Assembly (NCBI GenBank): GCA_027624625.1
Contig: JAQBWH010000001.1
Span: forward strand, 73,946 to 137,945
DNA from: Verrucomicrobiota bacterium
GTDB lineage: Bacteria; Verrucomicrobiota; Verrucomicrobiia; Chthoniobacterales; JACTMZ01
Direction of reading: 5' to 3'
DNA: 64,000 nucleotides
In this document: piece after piece, positions 9,051 to 18,021 of the stretch
Numbering within the stretch: position 1 is the stretch's first letter
How the letters are laid out: every line of letters starts with the position of its first letter
Notes under the pieces: generated by a model
The model's database searches: none
Told to the model about the DNA's origin: nothing
What the model saw: only the letters and a program-made list of their open reading frames with translations
Translations under genes and position numbers: made by a program

Positions 9051-9275
9051 GTCGGACCTGAAGGCTCTCTCCCATTTTAGCCGAGGCTGGGGAAGCGCGA
9101 TTTCGATATCTTTGCCCAGAGTGCCGGTCGCCCCTCTGGTCGAATCAGTTGCAAAGCTGCAGCGAGATTGGCGAAATTGGTCTTCAGCACCAACCCGGCG
9201 AGAACAAGCGGAAAATCCCGCGAGCCGTGGCTTTCAAGTTTGCCCGATGGTGGGCTATTGCTCTATGACAGCAAC

Positions 9276-10247
9276 GTGAACTTTCTCCTTCCTCCGGTTG
9301 TCGGGCTGCTTTTTGCGGCATTCAGCCTTTCCGTCCCTACCGCCGCGCAGGCCGATACGTTTGGCACGAGCGGTAATGAGTTCACCATCGACTTTGTTGG
9401 TATCGGCAATGCGGGCAATGCGGCTGATACGACCACCTATGGCGCGGTGGCTTACTCCTACCGTCTGGGTGCGCACGAAATTTCGCAGGACGCGATCGAC
9501 AAAGCCACGGCCAGCGGGATGACTGATGTGACGGCAGGGCCGTGGACCGGCGATCAACCGGCGGCCAGCCTCAATTGGTATGAGGCGGCGGCCTTCGTCA
9601 ATTTCCTGAACACCAGTTCGGGGAAGACGGCAGCCTACGATTTAACGTGGAGTGGCACCGCTTGGAGTATGGCGCTTTGGAGCAGCGAGCAGGCGTGGAC
9701 GGCGGGCGGAACCAATCTCTACCGCAACAAGAATGCCTACTATTTTCTGCCCAGCGAGAACGAGTGGTACAAGGCGGCTTATGACAACGCGGCCGGCTCG
9801 GCTTATTTTCCTTACCCGACGGGAAGCAGCACGGCGCCGATTGCGGTGGCCAGCGGGACCCAACCAGACTCCGCGGTTTACTTCCAGACGAACCAGATTT
9901 CGCCGGCGGAGGTGACCGCTGCCGGCGGCTTGAGTCCTTATGGCACGATGGGACAGGGCGGCAATGTGTGGGAGTGGACGGAGACCGCTCTGAGCGGCGA
10001 CAACAATTCTGCGACCAATGTGCGCACCATCCGCGGTGGCGGTTGGACCAGTCCCGAGGGCCAGTTGAGTTCCTCGTTCCGCAGTAGCAATGGTTTTCCG
10101 GACGGCGAACGCACCTGGGTCGGCTTCCGTGTCGCCAGTATCCCGGAACCCTCGACCTATGCGCTTCTTTTGGCGACCGGTGCCTTGTGGTGGGCGGCGA
10201 GAAAAGCGCGGTTTGGACGCGCCGTGCGCCGGAAGATTCCGCACTGA
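9276..10247 (+). CDS. SUMF1/FGE-sulfatase-domain protein with PEP-CTERM anchor
   Basis: GTG start gives the signal peptide VNFLLPPVVGLLFAAFSLSVPTAAQA; an alternative start is the ORF-track position 9168. FGE-domain motifs (GNVWEWT, IRGGGW, GFRVA). C-terminal IPEPSTYALLLATGALWWAARKARF. Confidence 0.8.
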   Translation: MNFLLPPVVGLLFAAFSLSVPTAAQADTFGTSGNEFTIDFVGIGNAGNAADTTTYGAVAYSYRLGAHEISQDAIDKATASGMTDVTAGPWTGDQPAASLNWYEAAAFVNFLNTSSGKTAAYDLTWSGTAWSMALWSSEQAWTAGGTNLYRNKNAYYFLPSENEWYKAAYDNAAGSAYFPYPTGSSTAPIAVASGTQPDSAVYFQTNQISPAEVTAAGGLSPYGTMGQGGNVWEWTETALSGDNNSATNVRTIRGGGWTSPEGQLSSSFRSSNGFPDGERTWVGFRVASIPEPSTYALLLATGALWWAARKARFGRAVRRKIPH

Positions 10248-10470
10248 AGCGAAGCGGCGAAGCATTTGGCCGCCGGGAGGACGGGGAGCCGGAAATAGGC
10301 TGAGTTTCACCCGACCCTGGCGCGAGCCGTGTCGAAAATGAAGATCCGAACCGACTCGAGAACGGGCCGGATTGGCGCGGCAAGCCTATCGCGGAAAAGG
10401 AGTGTGTTCCGGATGCGCCGAGCGGAAATGCTCTTGTCGGTCGGGGTGGGGAAGCGGATGGTCGTCAATC

Positions 10471-11661
10471 ATGGATGCGTTTTTTGTCGATCTCGGACGG
10501 CGGGTGCGGGGGCGATGGCAAGCGGTGGATTTTTCCCTCGCGGCCTTCCCCGGTATTGCGCGGACGGCTCTCGAGGAAAAACCCCCGGCGACGCAGGTGG
10601 AGCTTGCGGCTCTCACCCGCTCCTTTTTGCGCGACGATGAGCAGCCGTTTCAGACGGCCTCGGGGTTTGGCCAACCGGAGTTGGTCGTCTTCGATGATCC
10701 TCGGTTCTACATCCAGTTGCTGTTTTGGTTGGACGGAACCACGCAGATCCACCAGCACGAGTTCTCCGGATCCTTTCATGTGCTGGCAGGGTCGAGTCTG
10801 CACGCCGAGTTTGCCTTTACCAACGTGCAGCCGGTCACCGCGCATTTCCGGCTGGGTGATTTGCAACTGACCGGCACCGAGTTGCTCGAGACGGGGTGCA
10901 CCGTGCCGATCACGTCGGGCGCGGGCAGCATTCACTCGCTCTTTCACCTCGAAACCCCTTCGGTCACGGTGGTGGTGCGCACCCATTCGGACCCGGGGAC
11001 CGGACCGCAATTCACTTACCTGCCGCCGCATGTGGCGGTGGACCCGTTTTTTTCGGATGCGCTGACCACCCGGCGACTACAACTCCTCGACGTGCTCGAC
11101 CGGACGGGAGCGGAAGACTTTGCCGAGGTGGTCCGTACCATGGTGGCCTCACTCGATTACGAGCGGGGATTCTTCACTTTGCAAAACTGCCTTGTCGCCC
11201 TGCAAGAGCGGGGGGAATGGGAGGAAACGTGGGATGTTTTTGCCAAAAAGCACGGAGCGCTCGCCGCTTATGCCGCACCCACCTTGGAAGAAATCGTCTG
11301 GCGCGACCGGCTGGTCAGCTTGCGCAGTTCCATCGAGGACCCCGACCATCGTTTCTTTCTCGCCCTCCTGCTCAATGTCCCGCGGACCTCGGATCTTCTG
11401 CCTTTGGTCGCGGCGCGTTTTCCCGGGGATCCGGTCACCACGGTGCTGGGCTGGGCGGAGGAATTGAGCGAGTCCTCCGAAGAAGGCACCTGGATTCTCG
11501 ATGCGAAGTATCCGGATGAGGAAGCGGGCGAAGGCAGGGAAGCTCCGCTCGATCGCTTTCTCGGCACCTTGGCCCGTTGCCTCCGGAGCGAGGCCGGGGC
11601 AACCGATGCTGCCCGGCGCGAGGCGCTGGCGCAGTCGAGTCTGCGGGCTCTTGTGGCGTGA
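10471..11661 (+). CDS. Hypothetical protein with a cupin-like His motif
   Basis: ATG at 10471 (MDAFFVDL). Motifs QIHQHEFSGSFHVLAGS and GSIHSLFH resemble cupin metal-site motifs. Its stop TGA overlaps the GTG start of the downstream J-protein gene. Confidence 0.6.
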   Translation: MDAFFVDLGRRVRGRWQAVDFSLAAFPGIARTALEEKPPATQVELAALTRSFLRDDEQPFQTASGFGQPELVVFDDPRFYIQLLFWLDGTTQIHQHEFSGSFHVLAGSSLHAEFAFTNVQPVTAHFRLGDLQLTGTELLETGCTVPITSGAGSIHSLFHLETPSVTVVVRTHSDPGTGPQFTYLPPHVAVDPFFSDALTTRRLQLLDVLDRTGAEDFAEVVRTMVASLDYERGFFTLQNCLVALQERGEWEETWDVFAKKHGALAAYAAPTLEEIVWRDRLVSLRSSIEDPDHRFFLALLLNVPRTSDLLPLVAARFPGDPVTTVLGWAEELSESSEEGTWILDAKYPDEEAGEGREAPLDRFLGTLARCLRSEAGATDAARREALAQSSLRALVA

Positions 11662-12425
11662 GCGCGCCGAATCATTATGACACGCTCGGCCTCGACCGGC
11701 GTTGCACCACCGCACAAATCCGCGCGGCTTACCGCAGGTTGGTCAAACAACATCATCCGGACGTCAACCACACCGCGCCCGAAGCCACGCTGCGGGCCCA
11801 AGCGCTCAATACCGCGCACGCCACGCTGAGCGATCCTCTCCGGCGCGCGGACTATGATCGCGAGCTGGACGGGGACAACCCCGCCGGCGCAACGGTGCGG
11901 GGCGCAAGGCATCGTGACATTGCCCAGGATGTGATGCTGCGGATCGAAGAGTTTTTCCGCGGGACCACGCTGACCATCCGGGTCAACGATCCGGCCAACC
12001 CGCACGGCGCCGAAAGTTATGAACTTGAGGTTCCGCCGGACACAGCCCCGGGCACCAAATTCCGTCTCCCCCGGGCGGAGGAATTCTCCGGCAGCTGCGT
12101 CGTGGTGCGTTTGCGCGTCCTGCCCGGCGCCCGCTTCCGGGCGCGCGGATCCGACGTGCGCACCGACTTGCGGATCAGCGCCACGCGGGCGGCCAGCGGC
12201 GGCAGCGAGATGATCCCCGGGGCGAATGGACGCATGGTCCGCGTGACCATTCCGGCCGGAGTCACGCGCGGTGCGGTGCTGCGGGTGCCGGGCGAAGGCC
12301 TGCCCAAGCCACGCGGCGGCCGGGGCGATCTGCTGGTGCGCGTGACCTATCGGGTGGAAGTGAAAATCTCACGCGGGGCCAAGCGGCCCAGCGCATCCGG
12401 GCGACTGGGCTGGGGTCGGACGTGA
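11658..12425 (+). CDS. J-domain co-chaperone, CbpA/DnaJ type (J domain + DnaJ C-terminal domains, no zinc finger)
   Basis: GTG start at 11658 overlaps the upstream stop (GTGA). J domain NHYDTLGL...HHPDV with an HPD motif. DnaJ-CTD-like repeats (GTKFRLPRAE..., GAVLRVPGEGLPKPRGGRGDLLVRV). Confidence 0.8.
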   Translation: MSAPNHYDTLGLDRRCTTAQIRAAYRRLVKQHHPDVNHTAPEATLRAQALNTAHATLSDPLRRADYDRELDGDNPAGATVRGARHRDIAQDVMLRIEEFFRGTTLTIRVNDPANPHGAESYELEVPPDTAPGTKFRLPRAEEFSGSCVVVRLRVLPGARFRARGSDVRTDLRISATRAASGGSEMIPGANGRMVRVTIPAGVTRGAVLRVPGEGLPKPRGGRGDLLVRVTYRVEVKISRGAKRPSASGRLGWGRT

Positions 12426-12450
12426 CGGCCGAAGTTGAGGTTGCCATCGG

Positions 12451-12775
12451 TTGCGTCCCCGGGGCGTGAACACGCACGGATTGATTCGACAGACCGTGGA
12501 GCGGGTTCACGACGTGTTGGCCCATTTTCCCGAGGTCGGGGAAGCTACGCTTTCCCGGTTGCGGTCCCAGGGCACGGCGAAAGAAGACTTCGACATCGAT
12601 CTGGCGCTTTGCGGGCGAAGCGCTCGATTGGCGCGTGCTCGGCCGGATTGAGCACGAACTGGATGACCTGCTTCTGCCTTACGCTTCAACTTGCTTCGCC
12701 ACGCCACCCGAACTGATGTCCAACTGGCCGCTCACATTGCCAGGGTAGGAGTGTCTTTTTACCGGAGCGAGGGGC
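12451..12775 (+). pseudogene. Nucleotidyltransferase (MNT/Pol-beta-type) gene disrupted by two frameshifts
   Basis: The family motifs are spread over three frames: GTAKEDFDIDLAL (frame 1), FAGEALDWRVLGRIEHELDDLLLPY (frame 2), LLRHATRTDVQLAAHIARVGVSFY (frame 3). The usual G-S motif is also degenerate (SRLRSQG). Confidence 0.45.
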
Positions 12776-12878
12776 GACGACGGCTGGTTGAGGCGGCGGA
12801 GCGATGCGGGAGGCGTGCGGCGGACGCTATGACGACGCTTTACCCCGCGCACATTTGGACTTACAACCATTGGCTTCA

Positions 12879-12962
<84 letters not shown>

Positions 12963-12972
12963 AATTTTCACG

Positions 12973-13812
12973 GTGAAACTTTTCCAAGCCGCAGCGGAGG
13001 TGTTTGTGCCGGATGGTTGTCCGGCCGCCGCGGCCCTCGCGCGCACCACCCACTTGGGGATCGGGGCGCATCAAGACGATCTTGAATTCATGGCCTTCCA
13101 TGGGGTCGCGGAATGCTTCGGCAAAACCAAGCAATGGTTTTGCGGGGTGACCTGCACGGACGGGGCGGGCAGTTCGCGGAGCGGCGTGTACGCGGGATTA
13201 GGCGATGCGGAAATGGCGGATTTGCGTCGGGCGGAGCAACGGGCGGCGGCGGTGGCGGGTGATTATGGCGCGATGGCCCAACTTGCCTACACGAGCCCGG
13301 GGGCGAGGAACCCGGGGGATAAGCGGCTGCGGGAAGATTTGCGCGGAATACTCGAGGCGACCAAACCCGAGGTGGTCTACACCCACAACCTGGCCGACAA
13401 GCATCCGACGCATGTCGCCGTGGCTCGGGCCGCTATCGAGGCGTTGCGTTCGCTGCCTGCTGAAATCCGTCCGCAACGGGTCATCGGTTGCGAAGGATGG
13501 CGGGATTTGGATTGGCTGCCGGACGACGAGAAGGTGGTCATGGACGTCACGGGCCACGAGGCGCTGGCGGCGAAGTTATCCGCCTGCTTTGTCTCGCAGA
13601 TCGGCGGCGGCAAACGCTACGACCTTGCGGTGGCCGGCCGGCGGGCGGCGCATGCCACGTTTTCTGATCCGCACTGCCCAGACCGCGCGGCCCAGGTGAT
13701 TTTCGGGATGGATCTGACGCCGCTGATCAAGGATGCCGCGCTGGATCCGGGGGCTTATGTCGATGGGATGATTGAGAGGTTCCGACGAGCTGTTCGAACC
13801 AGCCACGGATGA
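12973..13812 (+). CDS. PIG-L/LmbE-family deacetylase
   Basis: Motifs LGIGAHQDDLEF and NLADKHPTHVAV (zinc-binding His/Asp pattern of the LmbE family). No ATG lies between the tRNA and the conserved region, so the in-frame GTG at 12973 is proposed. The start is uncertain. Confidence 0.7.
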   Translation: MKLFQAAAEVFVPDGCPAAAALARTTHLGIGAHQDDLEFMAFHGVAECFGKTKQWFCGVTCTDGAGSSRSGVYAGLGDAEMADLRRAEQRAAAVAGDYGAMAQLAYTSPGARNPGDKRLREDLRGILEATKPEVVYTHNLADKHPTHVAVARAAIEALRSLPAEIRPQRVIGCEGWRDLDWLPDDEKVVMDVTGHEALAAKLSACFVSQIGGGKRYDLAVAGRRAAHATFSDPHCPDRAAQVIFGMDLTPLIKDAALDPGAYVDGMIERFRRAVRTSHG

Positions 13813-13882: not shown

Positions 13883-14272
13883 TCAGGACTCCCCCAGGTT
13901 CCACGCCATTCTTTTGAAGTCTACTTTGCGTCGGCCGAAGTTGATCAGCAGGCCGACCGGCAACCGGGTCGCGGCAAGTTCGTTGAGCAGTTGGGCTTCA
14001 TCTGCTGGGCGGTATTCATCAGCCACTTTGAGTTCAACCAGCACCAGATCGTTCACCAGTAGATCGGCGATGTAGAGACCAACGGGCGTTGATTTGTAAA
14101 GGACCTCCAAGCGCTTTTCCATTTCGGCTCTGAAGCCGCGGTTTTGCAGTTCAGCTGCCATGGCGTTGCGGTAGACGGCTTCCAGAAATCCGTATCCGAG
14201 GACGTGGTGCACCTCGAAGGCCGAGCCAATGATCGCTTCGGTGATCTCGCCGTGAGCCAGTTCTTTTGACAT
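13883..14272 (-). CDS. GxxExxY family protein
   Basis: The translation (HVLGYGFLEAVYRNAMAAEL...DLLVNDLVLVELK...LINFG) matches the GxxExxY family pattern. Start taken at MSKEL. Confidence 0.8.
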   Translation of the reverse strand: MSKELAHGEITEAIIGSAFEVHHVLGYGFLEAVYRNAMAAELQNRGFRAEMEKRLEVLYKSTPVGLYIADLLVNDLVLVELKVADEYRPADEAQLLNELAATRLPVGLLINFGRRKVDFKRMAWNLGES

Positions 14273-14453
14273 GACGCCTCCTCGCACGAGTGACGCTTGG
14301 ATGCAATCCGGCCCGCTGGTGGCAGGTCTTGAGTTTGGCTCGGGTCAACGAGCCAAACTCTTATCCAAGCCGTTTATCCTCTTTAATTTGAGCGCTTCGC
14401 TCAGCTCTTCGAACTGTCTGTCTCCGCTACGCTCCGGCTGTGGCCTAAAAACT

Positions 14454-14792
14454 TCAGGCGACGGCCGCGGTGGCGTCGGCGACCGTCTCGTAGACGCGGA
14501 ACATTTGGTCGAGGCCGGTCAGCTTGAAAAATTCGCTAATTTGCGGGCTGAGGTTGGCCACCGCGAGTTTGCCGCCGCGCATCGACAAAGCTTGCGAGGG
14601 GCGGATGAGGGAACGGATGCCTACACTGGCAATAAAATCGACTCCGCCCATGTCGACAACCAGGGCTTTGCTCGTTTCGTCCCCGGCAACTTCCATCGCC
14701 GCGGCGTGCAGGGCATCGGCGCTGGCCTGATTGAGACGGCCGGTCAGGACAAGGATGGGGATGCCGTTCTCGCTGCGGCGGACGATTTCCAT
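14454..14792 (-). CDS. STAS-domain protein (anti-sigma-factor-antagonist type, RsbV/SpoIIAA-like)
   Basis: 112 aa. Conserved phosphorylatable Ser context VVDMGGVDFIASVGIRSL. Its start overlaps the upstream STAS gene's stop by 1 nt. Confidence 0.85.
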   Translation of the reverse strand: MEIVRRSENGIPILVLTGRLNQASADALHAAAMEVAGDETSKALVVDMGGVDFIASVGIRSLIRPSQALSMRGGKLAVANLSPQISEFFKLTGLDQMFRVYETVADATAAVA

Positions 14793-15136
14793 CAGGAGGC
14801 TTTGGCGGCGGCCACGGCCGCCTCGCGGGTATCGTGGACCGCATAAGCGGTCATGAACTGCGCGATCTCAAAAAGTTCCTTCACTTGCGGTTGGAAACTG
14901 CACACCGAGAGACTGCCGCCGTCGCGCCCCATGCGGCGCCCGGCGAGGAAAAACTCACGGAAGCCGGCACTGCTCACGTATTCGAGGTCGGCCAGGTCGA
15001 TGACCAGGTGCTTGGCTTGCGTCCGGTCGAGCTCGGCGTGCAGGGCGGTTTTGAAGTCGTTGTAGGTGATGGTGTCGATGCGGCCGGAGGGACAGGCGAC
15101 AAGGACATGGCCGTCGGTGAGGAAGGAACATTGCAT
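14792..15136 (-). CDS. STAS-domain protein (second RsbV/SpoIIAA-like paralogue)
   Basis: Start at MQCSFLTDG. Ser context VIDLADLEYVSSAGFREF. Divergent from the histidine kinase gene, 89 bp away. Confidence 0.8.
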   Translation of the reverse strand: MQCSFLTDGHVLVACPSGRIDTITYNDFKTALHAELDRTQAKHLVIDLADLEYVSSAGFREFFLAGRRMGRDGGSLSVCSFQPQVKELFEIAQFMTAYAVHDTREAAVAAAKAS

Positions 15137-15225
15137 GAACTGAAAGATGCCCCTCCGCACCGAAGCCCGGCAAGAAATTTCCGCTTGGGCCGTTGCGGCG
15201 TTGCCGATCGGGCGGCGGGCGGGTT

Positions 15226-18021
15226 ATGGATGGGATGGCATTTATGCGGCGTCTCTTCGGACTGAACACTTTGGCGGGCAAACTCACCCTGTGGACTGCC
15301 TTGGCCGCGGGCGCCATTATGTCCGTGCTCATCCTTTTCGCCTACCGGGCCGCGCGGGCTGAGCTGATCGAAAGCACCAAGCAAAGCGCCTTGGCCGAGG
15401 TCGGGGTCCATGCGGTCGAAATCGACGCGATGGTCGGGCGGGTCGAGTCACTCGTCACCACCATGGCGGCCGTGCAGGGGTTGCGTGGCCCGGACCCGGA
15501 CCCGGATGTCATGCTCGAGCTGCGCCGGATCATGGACAGCTTTCCGGCCAACGAAGTTTTCGGGGCCTATTACACTTTCGAGAATGCGGATTTCCGCGAC
15601 CCGATGTCCATGCCGTGGATCGACCGGAACTCCTATCCTAAAGCGACGATCAACAAGAACGATTTCCACATCGACCAGCCGTCGACCATTTGGTATTGGG
15701 GCGCGAAAAAATCCGGCCAGCTGACCATCAGTGAGCCGTATTTCGACGGCGGCGGTTCGGACGTGACCATGCTCAGCGTCAATGCCCCGGTCTTTGGTCC
15801 GGAGGGGGAATTCTACGGCATTTCGGGTGTCGATATTTCGCTGGACGACATGCAGGAGTTGATTAAAGAGGTCGACATTGCCATGGCTGGAGAAATGGCC
15901 GGGCACGAGTCGGACTTTGCCTACCTGGTCAGCCCGGCGGGAAAGATCATCGCGCACCCCGATGGCGGCCTCATGATCGGCGAGGGAAATCCGGGAGCGA
16001 ATATTTCGCAACTTCCGGCCGGGGTATCAATTCAGGCGACGCCATCCGGCCAAACGACCTACCGCAAACCGGACGGAGCCGAGCGCATTGTTTATTGGGT
16101 CACCGCACCGCTCTCCGGCTGGAAGGTGGTGCTCGATGTGCCCTATGCCACCCTTCTTATTCCGGTGCGTGCCTTGGCTTGGCGGCTCGGCACGGTGGGC
16201 GGGATCGGCCTACTCGTTCTCCTTGGGGCGGTCGGTCTCATTGCCCACCGCGTGGCGGGTCCGCTGCGGCATCTCACCGTCGCGGCGGCGGAACTGGAGG
16301 CCGGGCAAATGACCGGCGGGAAGCTTACGCCCCTGTTGCAGCGCGGCGATGAGGTGGGTGATCTCGGGCGGGCCTTCACCCGCATGGCCGACGAGATCCG
16401 CCAGCGCGAGGCCAGCCTCGCTGCTTGGAACGCCAATTTGGAAAAAACGGTGGCCGAACGCACCTCCGACCTCAAGGACGCGGTCGAGGATGCGGAAGAA
16501 GCGCGCGCCCTGGCGCAGGAGGCGAGCAAGACGAAGAGCGCTTTCCTAGCCAACATGAGCCATGAGCTGCGCACCCCGATGAATGCGATCATCGGCTACG
16601 GCGAGATGTTGCTCGAGGAGGCGGAAGAAACCGGGGAGAAGTGGATGGAGTCCGACCTGCAAAAGATTCTCTCTTCGGCCAAGCACCTCCTGCAACTGAT
16701 CAACGACATCCTCGATCTTTCCAAGATCGAAGCGGGTCGCATGACGGTCTTCCTCGAACCGGTCGACATCGCGCAGGCCGCACGCGACGTGTCCTCCACG
16801 GTGGAACCGCTGGTGGCCAAGAATGGGAATGTCTTTGAACTCAAGTGCCCGGAGGACATCGGCACGATGCGCACCGACCTGACCAAGCTGCGCCAGACCC
16901 TCTTCAACCTCTTGAGCAACGCGTCCAAGTTCACCGAGAAGGGCCGGATCAGGCTGGAGATCACGCGCCGGGCCGACCAGATGGTTTCCTTCGCGGTGAG
17001 CGACACCGGCATCGGAATGACGCCGGAGCAAACGGGCAAACTTTTCGGAGAGTTCGTGCAGGCCGACGCCTCGACCACGCGCAAATACGGCGGCACCGGC
17101 CTCGGGTTGGCCATTAGCCGCAAGTTCTGCCGGTTGCTCGGCGGCGATATCACGGTCCAAAGCGTGCCCGGACAAGGCAGTGCCTTCACTGCGATCTTGC
17201 CGGCCGAAGGCAAGGAGCCGGCCCCGGAACCGGCGGCCGAAGAAGCGGCTGCACCGAAAGCTGCGCCCGAAACCCGGTCCCCGGCAACCCGCGGCACTTT
17301 GCTCGTGATCGACGATGATCCGGATTCACGGGATTTGCTCAAGCGTATGCTCGAGAAGGACGGGTATGCCGTGCTCACCGCGTCCGGTGGGGCGGAAGGC
17401 CTCGCGCTGGCCAAGGAGCACCAACCCGAACTGATCACCCTCGATGTCATGATGCCGAGCATGGATGGCTGGGCGGTGCTCTCCGCCCTCAAGGCCGACC
17501 CCGCAACGGCTGAAATCCCGGTGGTCATGATGACCATGGTCGACGACAAGCCGATGGGTTTCGCGCTGGGTGCCTCCGATTACCTGACCAAGCCGATCGA
17601 CAAGTCCCGGGTGTTACAGGTCGTGTCGCGGCGGGTCGCTCATCATGGGGATGATGTTCTCGTCGTCGAGGATGACCCCATGGCGGCTGATATCGTGCGG
17701 CGCACGCTCGAGGCGGACGGTCGCCCGTCGCGCCATGCCCGCAACGGCCTCGAGGCCCTGCGACTGGTTCATGAGTCGCGTCCCGCGCTCATCGTCCTTG
17801 ATTTGATGATGCCGGAGATGGATGGCTTCGCCTTCCTTGACGCCCTGCGTGCGGAGGGGCCGGATTTTGCCGCTATTCCCGTCGTGGTGCTGACGGCCAA
17901 AGATCTCACGGCGGATGAGCGCGGATTTTTGTCCGGCCGCGTGCAAGAGACCTTGCGCAAGGGGGCGGAGCAGCGCGAGAATCTGCTCGAAACAATCCGT
18001 CGCAATCTGAATCCTCTTTGA
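15226..18021 (+). CDS. Hybrid sensor histidine kinase: dCache - TM - HAMP - HisKA - HATPase_c - REC - REC
   Basis: Periplasmic Cache-like region between two TM segments. HAMP ([16 protein letters not shown]). H-box [16 protein letters not shown]-boxes ([15 protein letters not shown]). Two receiver domains (LLVIDDDP...[10 protein letters not shown] and VLVVEDDP...[10 protein letters not shown]). Confidence 0.9.

What the first reader, a model, noticed from the sequence alone, without database searches (positions are those of the whole stretch)
10471..12425. Cupin-like protein of unknown function translationally coupled to a CbpA-type J-protein
The 396-aa upstream protein has His-rich motifs reminiscent of a cupin metal site (QIHQHEFSGSFHVLAGS ... 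GSIHSLFH) followed by a helical C-terminal half. Its TGA overlaps the GTG start of a J-domain protein (GTGA at 11658-11661). That protein has an intact HPD motif and DnaJ-type C-terminal substrate-binding domains but no zinc finger. The known cbpA partner, cbpM, lies downstream of cbpA and is small and MerR-like, so this arrangement is different. A dedicated J-protein coupled to one specific protein suggests a client/co-chaperone pair or an Hsp70-recruiting module.
Basis: partly seen in the sequence, partly recalled or inferred. Interest (0 to 1): 0.55.

Follow-up and report, generated by a model that had tools for sequence, protein, structure and literature searches.

The report
Cupin enzyme gene overlapping J-protein gene
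Two real genes, an uncharacterised metal-binding cupin enzyme and a compact DnaJ-like co-chaperone, overlap by four bases in one lineage of Chthoniobacterales, but most relatives keep the two genes apart, so a dedicated chaperone-client pair is not supported.

Summary
A 396-aa ORF (10471-11661) ends in a TGA that overlaps the GTG start of a 255-aa J-protein (11658-12425). The J-protein has an intact HPD motif and a DnaJ C-terminal domain, with no zinc finger and no G/F region.

The upstream protein has no Pfam or NCBIfam match. It models confidently as helices, a cupin barrel, a helical domain and a short tail. The barrel is closest to the 3-His thiol dioxygenases, and H94, H96, H155 and H159 are invariant across the family. 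The family is large, about 1,900 clusters at 50% identity. In distant members the tail is a PqqD-like peptide-recognition element, and the gene sits in RiPP-type clusters.

The pairing is lineage-restricted. GTGA is invariant in one monophyletic clade, where the flanking genes turn over. A second lineage has the genes adjacent but not overlapping. About 60 other Chthoniobacterales loci carry the cupin gene without a J gene. Seventy-two J-ortholog loci lack the cupin gene, 48 of them with at least 1.2 kb of upstream sequence.

Best reading: a putative peptide- or protein-oxidising iron enzyme and a general J co-chaperone were joined into one operon in this clade. A true functional pair remains possible (about 0.25).

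The parts
10471..11661 (+). Gene A: 396-aa protein of an unnamed family (N-terminal helices, 3-His cupin barrel, helical domain, trimmed PqqD-like tail)
   Evidence: ORF and translation. No Pfam or NCBIfam hit. More than 1,800 homologues and 1,883 clusters at 50% identity. AF2 model pLDDT 87.
10678..11040 (+). Cupin beta-barrel (residues 70-190), closest in fold to the 3-His thiol dioxygenases
   Evidence: Strands 70-190 in the model. Foldseek against PDB gives CDO, MDO, ADO, PCO and ergothioneine dioxygenase at E 5e-7 to 3e-5. The cupin profile's best PDB sequence hits are the 3-mercaptopropionate dioxygenases 3uss and 6xb9, with IHQH aligned to VHDH (E 0.18, not significant alone).
10750..10758 (+). 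Cupin motif 1, H94-Q-H96: predicted metal ligands
   Evidence: Read directly from the sequence. Invariant in alignments A1, A2 and A6. Aligned to the HxH of MDO.
10933..10947 (+). Cupin motif 2, H155-S-L-F-H159: predicted third metal ligand (H155) plus an invariant H159
   Evidence: Read directly from the sequence. Invariant in A1, A2 and A6. The ligand assignment is inferred from the canonical G(X)2H(X)3N motif.
11059..11472 (+). All-helical domain (residues 197-334) with no detectable solved-structure relative
   Evidence: Models. Foldseek against PDB with the C-terminal half gives a best E of 0.73.
11488..11658 (+). C-terminal tail (residues about 340-396), homologous to the PqqD-like RRE tail of distant family members but lacking the middle helix
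   Evidence: The tail profile of distant members hits the lasso-peptide RRE TfuB1 (6jx3_B, E 2.9e-6) and PqqD (3g2b, E 0.064). hhalign of the window-clade tail against that profile gives 95.5% probability, E 1.6e-8, with a gap over the middle helix. PqqD Pfam hits occur in 4 of 45 distant members.
11658..11661 (+). GTGA: the start codon of J overlaps the stop codon of A
   Evidence: Sequence. Identical GTGA junction in L002-L009 and L011. Zero-gap junctions in metagenome loci L117, L119, L122, L134, L137 and L140.
11658..12425 (+). Gene J: 255-aa J-domain co-chaperone (J domain plus DnaJ C-terminal domains, no zinc finger, no G/F region)
   Evidence: Pfam DnaJ and DnaJ_C. All NCBIfam DnaJ, CbpA, HscB and DjlA models score far below their cut-offs. 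3,107 homologues.
11670..11858 (+). J domain (residues 5-67) with HPD at 11754-11762
   Evidence: Pfam PF00226, E 1.5e-18. HPD read from the sequence.
11925..12350 (+). DnaJ C-terminal substrate-binding domains (residues 90-231)
   Evidence: Pfam PF01556, E 2.3e-19, covering positions 3-149 of 152.

Best explanation
A and J are two independently distributed Chthoniobacterales genes that were fused into a two-gene operon in one lineage.

Gene A belongs to a large unnamed family. It has a 3-His cupin barrel of the thiol-dioxygenase fold type, a helical domain and a PqqD-like tail. The family most likely consists of non-haem-iron, O2-dependent oxidases that act on a peptide or protein substrate. 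The Chthoniobacterales subfamily is an orphan version: it has a trimmed recognition tail and no neighbouring precursor gene.

Gene J is a compact J-domain plus DnaJ-CTD co-chaperone for DnaK. Its orthologues occur across the order in other gene contexts.

In the window's clade the TGA/GTG overlap makes co-transcription and termination-reinitiation coupling likely, so the two proteins are co-expressed. Comparative genomics does not show that either protein needs the other.

Shown here: gene structures, domains, fold, invariant His residues, distribution of the pairing, and the RiPP-type contexts of distant members. Inferred: iron and O2 chemistry, peptide substrate, translational coupling, DnaK partnership.
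For: - **Gene structure and overlap:**
- **J domains:**
- **A fold:** AF2 pLDDT 87. Foldseek hits to CDO, MDO, ADO and PCO at E about 5e-7. Motif-level agreement with MDO (HxHxxxG). H94, H96, H155 and H159 are invariant across members only about 35-45% identical.
- **RRE tail:** TfuB1 at E 2.9e-6. Homology of the window tail.
- **RiPP-type contexts of distant members:**
  - An HprK-related-kinase-A-like gene, PqqD and NTP_transf_5 lie within a few kb upstream on the same strand in L082 and L165; in L169 only PqqD and NTP_transf_5 were identified.
  - A LanB dehydratase and halogenase cluster.
  - A cluster with a GG-leader precursor and a C39-ABC exporter.
  - A cluster with a carbamoyltransferase, a 2OG oxygenase and a radical SAM enzyme.
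  - Fusions to LCM, FkbM, JmjC and GT8 domains.
- **Pairing is lineage-restricted:** 11 of 81 A loci have J. 8 of 80 J loci have A. J has other recurrent neighbours.
Against: - Within the clade the A-J unit is more stable than its surroundings. The upstream FGE/PEP-CTERM gene and the downstream genes are replaced in L005, L007, L009 and L011, yet A-J keeps the 4-nt overlap.
- A second lineage (L045, 415-nt gap; L085, about 22-nt gap) also has A directly upstream of J. This could mean selection for the pair.
- The peptide-substrate inference for the window's own protein is weak. Its tail lacks one RRE helix and models as helices only. No precursor-like ORF is conserved next to it. Four of ten distant contexts were uninformative.
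- Sequence similarity to thiol dioxygenases is below significance.
Confidence: 0.55

Rival explanations
1. A and J are a true functional pair in this clade. J is a dedicated co-chaperone. Either it recruits DnaK to fold, metallate or assemble A, or its C-terminal peptide-binding domains deliver extended polypeptide substrates to A. The second option would replace the trimmed recognition tail.
For: - The GTGA overlap is invariant in every clade junction that could be read, across clade members down to 82% (A) and 75% (J) identity.
- The flanks turn over while A-J stays together.
- A is also directly upstream of J in the separate L045/L085 lineage.
- The window-clade tail is the shortest in the family and lacks the middle RRE helix.
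Against: - About 60 loci with A orthologues (55-67% identical) have no J within 6 kb.
- 72 J-orthologue loci have no A, and 48 of them have at least 1.2 kb of upstream sequence.
- Distant A-family members pair with PqqD and RiPP genes, never with a J-protein.
- No A-J fusion appears among the 150 best family representatives.
- Overlapping genes are mechanically hard to separate, so persistence within a clade is weak evidence.
- In the J tree the two A-linked groups lie in one subtree, so a single ancestral juxtaposition suffices.
Confidence: 0.25
2. A is a small-molecule thiol dioxygenase, like CDO or 3-mercaptopropionate dioxygenase. The helical half serves only in oligomerisation or regulation. 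No peptide is involved, and J is an unrelated neighbour.
For: The best structural matches are thiol dioxygenases. The only PDB sequence-profile hits to the barrel are 3-mercaptopropionate dioxygenases, with the HxHxxxG motif aligned. The Chthoniobacterales subfamily has variable neighbours and no precursor gene.
Against: - No hit to the Pfam CDO_I or PCO_ADO models, even at E of 1 or less.
- The barrel is only about a third of the protein.
- The tail of the wider family is a PqqD-like RRE, and several members sit in RiPP clusters.
- The L170 precursor core (DGVGPGWGPDRGIEQQNP) has no cysteine, so thiol chemistry cannot be general for the family.
Confidence: 0.15
3. A is a CbpM-like modulator. 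It binds the J domain and switches the co-chaperone off.
For: There is only the analogy of a co-transcribed partner gene, as in cbpA-cbpM. No tool result supports it directly.
Against: - A is 396 aa, lies upstream, and is a cupin, not a roughly 100-aa MerR-like protein.
- Its invariant His cluster points to catalysis.
- Most J orthologues lack A.
Confidence: 0.03

Closest known systems
cbpA-cbpM operon (E. coli class B J-protein and its modulator)
   Same: Both have a J-protein with HPD and DnaJ C-terminal domains, no zinc finger, co-transcribed with one partner gene.
   Different: Here the partner lies upstream, is 396 aa, and is a cupin rather than a MerR-like protein. J lacks the G/F-type linker and scores 52 bits against the 403-bit cut-off of the CbpA model. 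The downstream neighbours are a broken nucleotidyltransferase gene and tRNA-Leu.
3-His thiol dioxygenases (CDO, 3-mercaptopropionate dioxygenase, ADO/PCO, ergothioneine and mercaptosuccinate dioxygenases)
   Same: Same cupin barrel type; these are the best Foldseek hits. The HxHxxxG motif 1 aligns with MDO. There is no Glu at the canonical cupin position, so a 3-His site is likely. ADO and PCO act on protein N-termini, which is a precedent for a polypeptide substrate.
   Different: No significant sequence match. A has an extra N-terminal helical hairpin, a 140-aa helical domain and an RRE-like tail. At least one family member's cluster has a precursor without cysteine.
RiPP tailoring enzymes with a fused or partner PqqD-like recognition element (for example the lasso B1 protein TfuB1; cupin-like or JmjC hydroxylases such as PbsQ and BpmG in biphenomycin-type clusters, PMC12257519)
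   Same: The tail of distant family members matches TfuB1 and PqqD. Family members lie in clusters with LanB, C39-ABC exporters, radical SAM enzymes and leader-type precursors.
   Different: No member has been characterised. The barrel resembles thiol dioxygenases rather than 2OG/JmjC enzymes. The window's subfamily has a trimmed tail and no RiPP neighbours.
HPr-rel-A system (HprK-related kinase A, PqqD-family chaperone and PF14907 nucleotidyltransferase cassettes; related enzymes tailor lasso peptides, PMC8498205)
   Same: In Acidobacteriota, A-family genes follow HprK_rel_A-like, PqqD and NTP_transf_5 genes on the same strand in L082 and L165; in L169 only PqqD and NTP_transf_5 were identified.
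   Different: The matches to the curated kinase and PqqD models are below their cut-offs. None of these genes is near A in the window or in other Chthoniobacterales loci.
HscB-HscA-IscU (a J-protein dedicated to one client)
   Different: HscB has its own client-binding domain and is co-conserved with IscU across bacteria. Here J has generic DnaJ C-terminal domains, and the pairing is not conserved.

Membership tests
Cupin superfamily | Small beta-barrel fold | tested here: met
   The AF2 model has strands at 70-190 with pLDDT about 90. 193 Foldseek PDB matches at E of 1e-3 or better; the 50 best listed are all cupin-fold enzymes.
Cupin superfamily | Two His-containing motifs, G(X)5HXH... and G(X)2H(X)3N-like | tested here: met
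   G89-TTQI-H94-Q-H96 and G152-SI-H155-SLF-H159 are read from the sequence. The His residues are invariant. The spacing is one residue shorter than canonical, and N is replaced by H159.
Thiol dioxygenases (Pfam CDO_I / PCO_ADO) | Match to the family's sequence models | tested here: not met
   No Pfam or NCBIfam hit at E of 1 or less. The PDB profile search gives MDO at E 0.18 only.
Thiol dioxygenases (Pfam CDO_I / PCO_ADO) | 3-His iron site with no Glu ligand | tested here: inconclusive
   HxH aligns to the MDO ligands, H155 is invariant, and no Glu sits at the canonical position. No model coordinates were available to check the geometry, and no metal analysis was done.
Thiol dioxygenases (Pfam CDO_I / PCO_ADO) | Thiol substrate | not testable with these tools
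   The only hint is negative: the precursor in the L170 cluster has no Cys.
PqqD-like RiPP recognition element (RRE) | Sequence-profile match to known RREs | tested here: inconclusive
   Met for distant family members (TfuB1 E 2.9e-6, PqqD 0.064; PqqD Pfam in 4 of 45). The window's tail is homologous, but it lacks the middle helix and shows no beta-strands in the model.
RiPP biosynthetic cluster | Neighbouring precursor peptide and core or transport enzymes | tested here: not met
   Not met for the window. Its neighbours are an FGE/PEP-CTERM protein, J, a broken NTase gene, tRNA-Leu and PIG-L. No conserved small ORF lies beside A in 80 loci. Met in some distant members.
CbpA (curved DNA-binding protein, class B J-protein) | J domain with HPD plus DnaJ C-terminal domains and no zinc finger | tested here: met
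   Pfam DnaJ and DnaJ_C only.
CbpA (curved DNA-binding protein, class B J-protein) | Score above the curated equivalog cut-off (NF007618) | tested here: not met
   52.2 bits against a cut-off of 403.
CbpA (curved DNA-binding protein, class B J-protein) | G/F-type linker after the J domain | tested here: not met
   The linker, residues 68-89 (RELDGDNPAGATVRGARHRDIAQ), has no Phe and few Gly.
CbpA (curved DNA-binding protein, class B J-protein) | Downstream cbpM partner | tested here: not met
   Downstream lie a frameshifted nucleotidyltransferase gene and tRNA-Leu.
DnaJ (class A) | Zinc-finger domain and a score above the TIGR02349 cut-off | tested here: not met
   No DnaJ_CXXCXGXG hit. 111.8 bits against a cut-off of 377.
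Conserved two-gene module (A with J) | Neighbourhood conserved across lineages that carry both families | tested here: not met
   11 of 81 A loci and 8 of 80 J loci carry the pair. All belong to the window clade or to L045/L085.

The most novel reading that the evidence does not exclude
In this clade the J-protein may be a built-in substrate-delivery factor for a polypeptide-oxidising cupin enzyme. Its DnaJ C-terminal domains would capture extended client segments and present them, with DnaK, to the 3-His iron site. This would take over the job of the degenerated PqqD-like recognition tail. It would link the Hsp70 system directly to an oxidative post-translational modification.
Probability: 0.1. 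Interest if true: 0.75.

Novelty: new variant of a known kind. Interest (0 to 1): 0.35.

Why it matters
The chaperone-client idea, which was the reason for flagging, is mostly deflated. The pairing is a clade-level operon, not a conserved module.

The useful outcome concerns the upstream gene. It marks a large, unnamed and uncharacterised enzyme family of about 1,900 clusters at 50% identity. The family is found in Verrucomicrobiota and Acidobacteriota, with at least one member labelled Burkholderiaceae. It joins a thiol-dioxygenase-like 3-His cupin to a PqqD-type peptide-recognition tail, and outside this order it sits in RiPP-type clusters.

That gives a concrete, testable entry point into a possible new class of peptide-tailoring oxygenases. 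One example is the L170 cluster, which has a 55-aa GG-leader precursor.

If the minority reading is right, it would be the first case of a J-protein dedicated to a modifying enzyme.

Tried and rejected
- **Family and sequence searches on A:** Pfam and NCBIfam gave nothing. PDB sequence searches with the single sequence and the full-length profile gave nothing meaningful.
- **C-terminal half:** a fold search with this half alone found no match better than E 0.73.
- **RRE tail against one protein:** hhalign of the tail profile against the single PqqD protein of L082 found no match. The PDB profile search was the informative test instead.
- **Conserved neighbours of A:** none were found across 80 Chthoniobacterales loci, among either large ORFs or small ORFs of 25-130 aa. 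The only recurring ORFs were alternative frames of A and J.
- **Regulatory and RNA scans, 10000-13000:** no promoter-like site. The two terminator-like hairpins lie inside A and number fewer than chance expects. Rfam found only tRNA-Leu.
- **JGI label:** some orthologues are labelled 'ribulose-5-phosphate 4-epimerase/fuculose-1-phosphate aldolase'. I rejected this because there is no Aldolase_II hit and the fold is a cupin.
- **Literature:** no paper links a J-domain protein to a cupin operon, or a thiol dioxygenase to an RRE.
- **CbpM-like modulator idea:** rejected on size, fold and position.
Full report
**1. The observation**

- The window holds a 396-aa ORF on the + strand, from ATG 10471 to TGA 11659-11661. 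A 255-aa ORF starts at GTG 11658, so the two share GTGA at 11658-11661.
- Homologues called on other contigs have the same lengths at 100% coverage, which supports both starts.
- The downstream protein matches Pfam DnaJ (residues 5-67) and DnaJ_C (90-231). HPD is at residues 33-35. There is no zinc-finger hit, and the 22-residue linker is not G/F-rich.
- Every curated NCBIfam model scores far below its cut-off. This covers DnaJ, CbpA, HscB, DjlA and TopJ. CbpA scores 52 bits against 403.
- So J is a compact J-domain plus CTD co-chaperone. It is 'CbpA-type' only in lacking the zinc finger.

**2. What the upstream protein is**

- It has no Pfam or NCBIfam match and no significant PDB sequence match.
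- It belongs to a big family. More than 1,800 proteins were found in the 90% database, and 1,883 clusters at 50% identity in an exhaustive search.
- An AF2 model built from 39 homologues is confident (pLDDT 87, pTM 0.82). It shows four N-terminal helices, a beta-barrel at 70-190 and an all-helical C-terminal half.
- Foldseek against PDB returns cupins. The top ranks are filled by 3-His thiol dioxygenases: CDO, 3-mercaptopropionate dioxygenase, ADO, PCO, and the ergothioneine and mercaptosuccinate dioxygenases (E 5e-7 to 3e-5).
- A profile of the barrel alone finds 3-mercaptopropionate dioxygenases as its only dioxygenase hits in PDB sequences. The scores are not significant (E 0.18 and 1.5). 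The family's W..G..IHQHxFSG is laid on MDO's W..G..VHDHRVWG, which carries the metal-binding HxH.
- H94, H96, H155 and H159 are invariant among members only about 35-45% identical, as are W86, R170 and R285.
- I infer a 3-His metal site from H94, H96 and H155. This rests on motifs and alignment, not on measured geometry.

**3. The C-terminal half and the family's contexts**

- The helical domain (197-334) has no detectable solved-structure relative.
- A profile of the last 90 or so residues of distant members hits the lasso-peptide recognition protein TfuB1 (6jx3_B, E 2.9e-6) and then PqqD (3g2b and 5sxy). PqqD is also the only Pfam family hit repeatedly in those members, 4 of 45.
- The window-clade tail is homologous to that profile (hhalign 95.5%, E 1.6e-8). 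It lacks the middle helix and models as helices only.
- Ten genomic contexts of distant members were read.
  - Three Acidobacteriota loci carry PqqD and a PF14907 nucleotidyltransferase upstream on the same strand. Two also have an HprK-related-kinase-A-like gene, and two have a MauE/AhpC-type redox protein.
  - One lies in a cluster with a LanB-type dehydratase, two metallo-beta-lactamase-fold proteins, a glycosyltransferase and a halogenase.
  - One lies beside a C39-peptidase ABC exporter and a 55-aa ORF with a typical double-glycine leader: MSETNEKDPATKKKKLNLTKEVIETLKDEDLDKVTGG followed by DGVGPGWGPDRGIEQQNP.
  - One lies with a carbamoyltransferase, a methyltransferase, a 2OG oxygenase and a radical SAM gene.
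  - Four were uninformative.
- Fusions to LCM and FkbM methyltransferases, to a JmjC domain and to a GT8 domain also occur.
- HPr-kinase homologues and nucleotidyltransferases are known lasso-peptide tailoring enzymes (PMC8498205). A cupin-like hydroxylase is known in a RiPP pathway (PMC12257519).
- Together this makes a peptide-tailoring oxygenase the best guess for the family. The L170 core peptide has no cysteine, so thiol dioxygenation cannot be the general chemistry.

**4. The pairing, tested from both sides**

- *From A:*
  - A scan of one genome per species returned 305 relatives. The best 80 were fetched, and all lie in or near Chthoniobacterales.
  - J follows A with zero gap in L002-L011, a monophyletic clade with A at least 82% identical. 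J follows with a 415-nt gap in L045.
  - About 60 other loci have at least 1 kb of downstream sequence and have no J-domain gene next to A (one, L054, has an unrelated J-domain hit about 5 kb downstream). The closest outgroup with room, L013, is among them.
- *From J:*
  - A metagenome scan with a J alignment returned 80 orthologue loci, 54-90% identical to the window J.
  - Only 8 have A upstream. Seven belong to the window clade and one is L085, a relative of L045.
  - 72 loci lack A, and 48 of them have at least 1.2 kb of upstream sequence.
  - Elsewhere J recurs near a DEAD-box helicase (12 loci), an RRM RNA-binding protein (10 loci) and a 94-aa ORF placed about 19 nt upstream (9 loci).
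- In a neighbour-joining tree of J, the window clade and L045/L085 fall in one larger subtree. They are interleaved with unlinked L106, L087 and L100. One old juxtaposition with later losses, or two gains, are both possible. The tree has no support values.
- Inside the clade, the GTGA junction is identical in all nine genomes that could be read. The pair persists while both flanks are replaced in L005, L007, L009 and L011.
- That is some evidence for selection on the unit. However, two genes with overlapping stop and start codons are also simply hard to separate.

**5. Mechanism and verdict**

- The best-supported account is a lineage-specific operon. It co-expresses a putative non-haem-iron oxidase of the cupin-RRE family with a general J-domain co-chaperone. 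The mechanism is probably termination-reinitiation at GTGA.
- Nothing here shows a physical or functional dependence.
- A clade-specific functional link keeps a probability of roughly 0.25. The most interesting form of it is a J-protein delivering substrates to a modifying enzyme whose own recognition tail has decayed. I put that at about 0.1.

**6. Novelty and limits**

- The J-protein is an ordinary new member of its kind.
- The upstream family is not described in Pfam, NCBIfam or the searched literature. It combines known parts in an undescribed way, hence 'new variant of a known kind'. Interest is moderate to low for the flagged reason and somewhat higher for the enzyme family.
- Limits:
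  - no model coordinates were available to check the metal site;
  - whole genomes could not be scanned for unlinked copies;
  - multimer prediction was not possible.

Noticed in passing
window 12451-12790 (+): A small nucleotidyltransferase gene just downstream of J appears broken by two compensating frameshifts. Its N- and C-terminal parts read in one frame and the middle (GEALDWRVLGRIEHELDDLLLPY) in another. L002 has an intact homologue. This is either a pseudogene or a sequence error.
   Followed up: partly
window 12879-12962 (+): tRNA-Leu(CAA) lies between the A-J operon and the PIG-L deacetylase gene. The long ORFs listed across it (12679-13134 on the - strand, and the 5' part of 12691-13812 on the + strand) are therefore not genes as drawn.
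   Followed up: partly
window 9168-10247 (+): The gene upstream of A encodes an FGE-sulfatase-domain protein ending in a PEP-CTERM-like sorting signal (PEPSTYALLLATGALWWAARKARF). It is present upstream of A only in L003 and L004 among the clade's genomes.
   Followed up: partly
L089, L096, L101, L102, L104, L114, L116, L130, L132 (immediately upstream of J orthologues): In nine metagenome loci, an ORF of about 94 aa recurs near the J orthologue, in eight of them about 19 nt upstream on the same strand. An example sequence is MVAPTNIRNSSRMKKPIKLRQAQVWKQGEEYIRIVQLERLAVEYK.... It has no Pfam hit. It may be the usual operon partner of this J-protein in other lineages.
   Followed up: partly
L092-L146 (J-orthologue loci): J orthologues outside the window clade often lie near a divergently oriented DEAD-box RNA helicase and an RRM-type RNA-binding protein. 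L045 also has a DEAD-box helicase next to J. This may hint at an RNA- or cold-related regulon for this J-protein.
   Followed up: no
L170 380-7227: A compact RiPP-like cluster around a distant A homologue. It holds a 55-aa precursor with a double-glycine leader and a Cys-free core (DGVGPGWGPDRGIEQQNP), a 423-aa protein with no family, a metallo-beta-lactamase-fold protein, the A homologue, and a C39-peptidase ABC exporter.
   Followed up: partly
L010 2424-2651; L003 9968-10042: Extra partial copies of the 3' end of the J gene (residues 179-254 at 80% identity, and 231-255 at 96%) lie downstream of the intact J gene in two clade genomes. They look like remnants of local duplication or rearrangement.
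   Followed up: no
orthologues P0005, P0015, P0048: JGI labels some orthologues of A 'ribulose-5-phosphate 4-epimerase/fuculose-1-phosphate aldolase'. Nothing here supports that name: there is no Aldolase_II hit and the fold is a cupin.
   Followed up: yes
window 13883-15160 (-) and 15193-18021 (+): A PD-(D/E)XK-family protein and two tandem STAS-domain (anti-sigma antagonist-like) genes lie divergent from a 942-aa hybrid histidine kinase with two receiver domains. This block is syntenic in L002, L006, L008 and L140.
   Followed up: no
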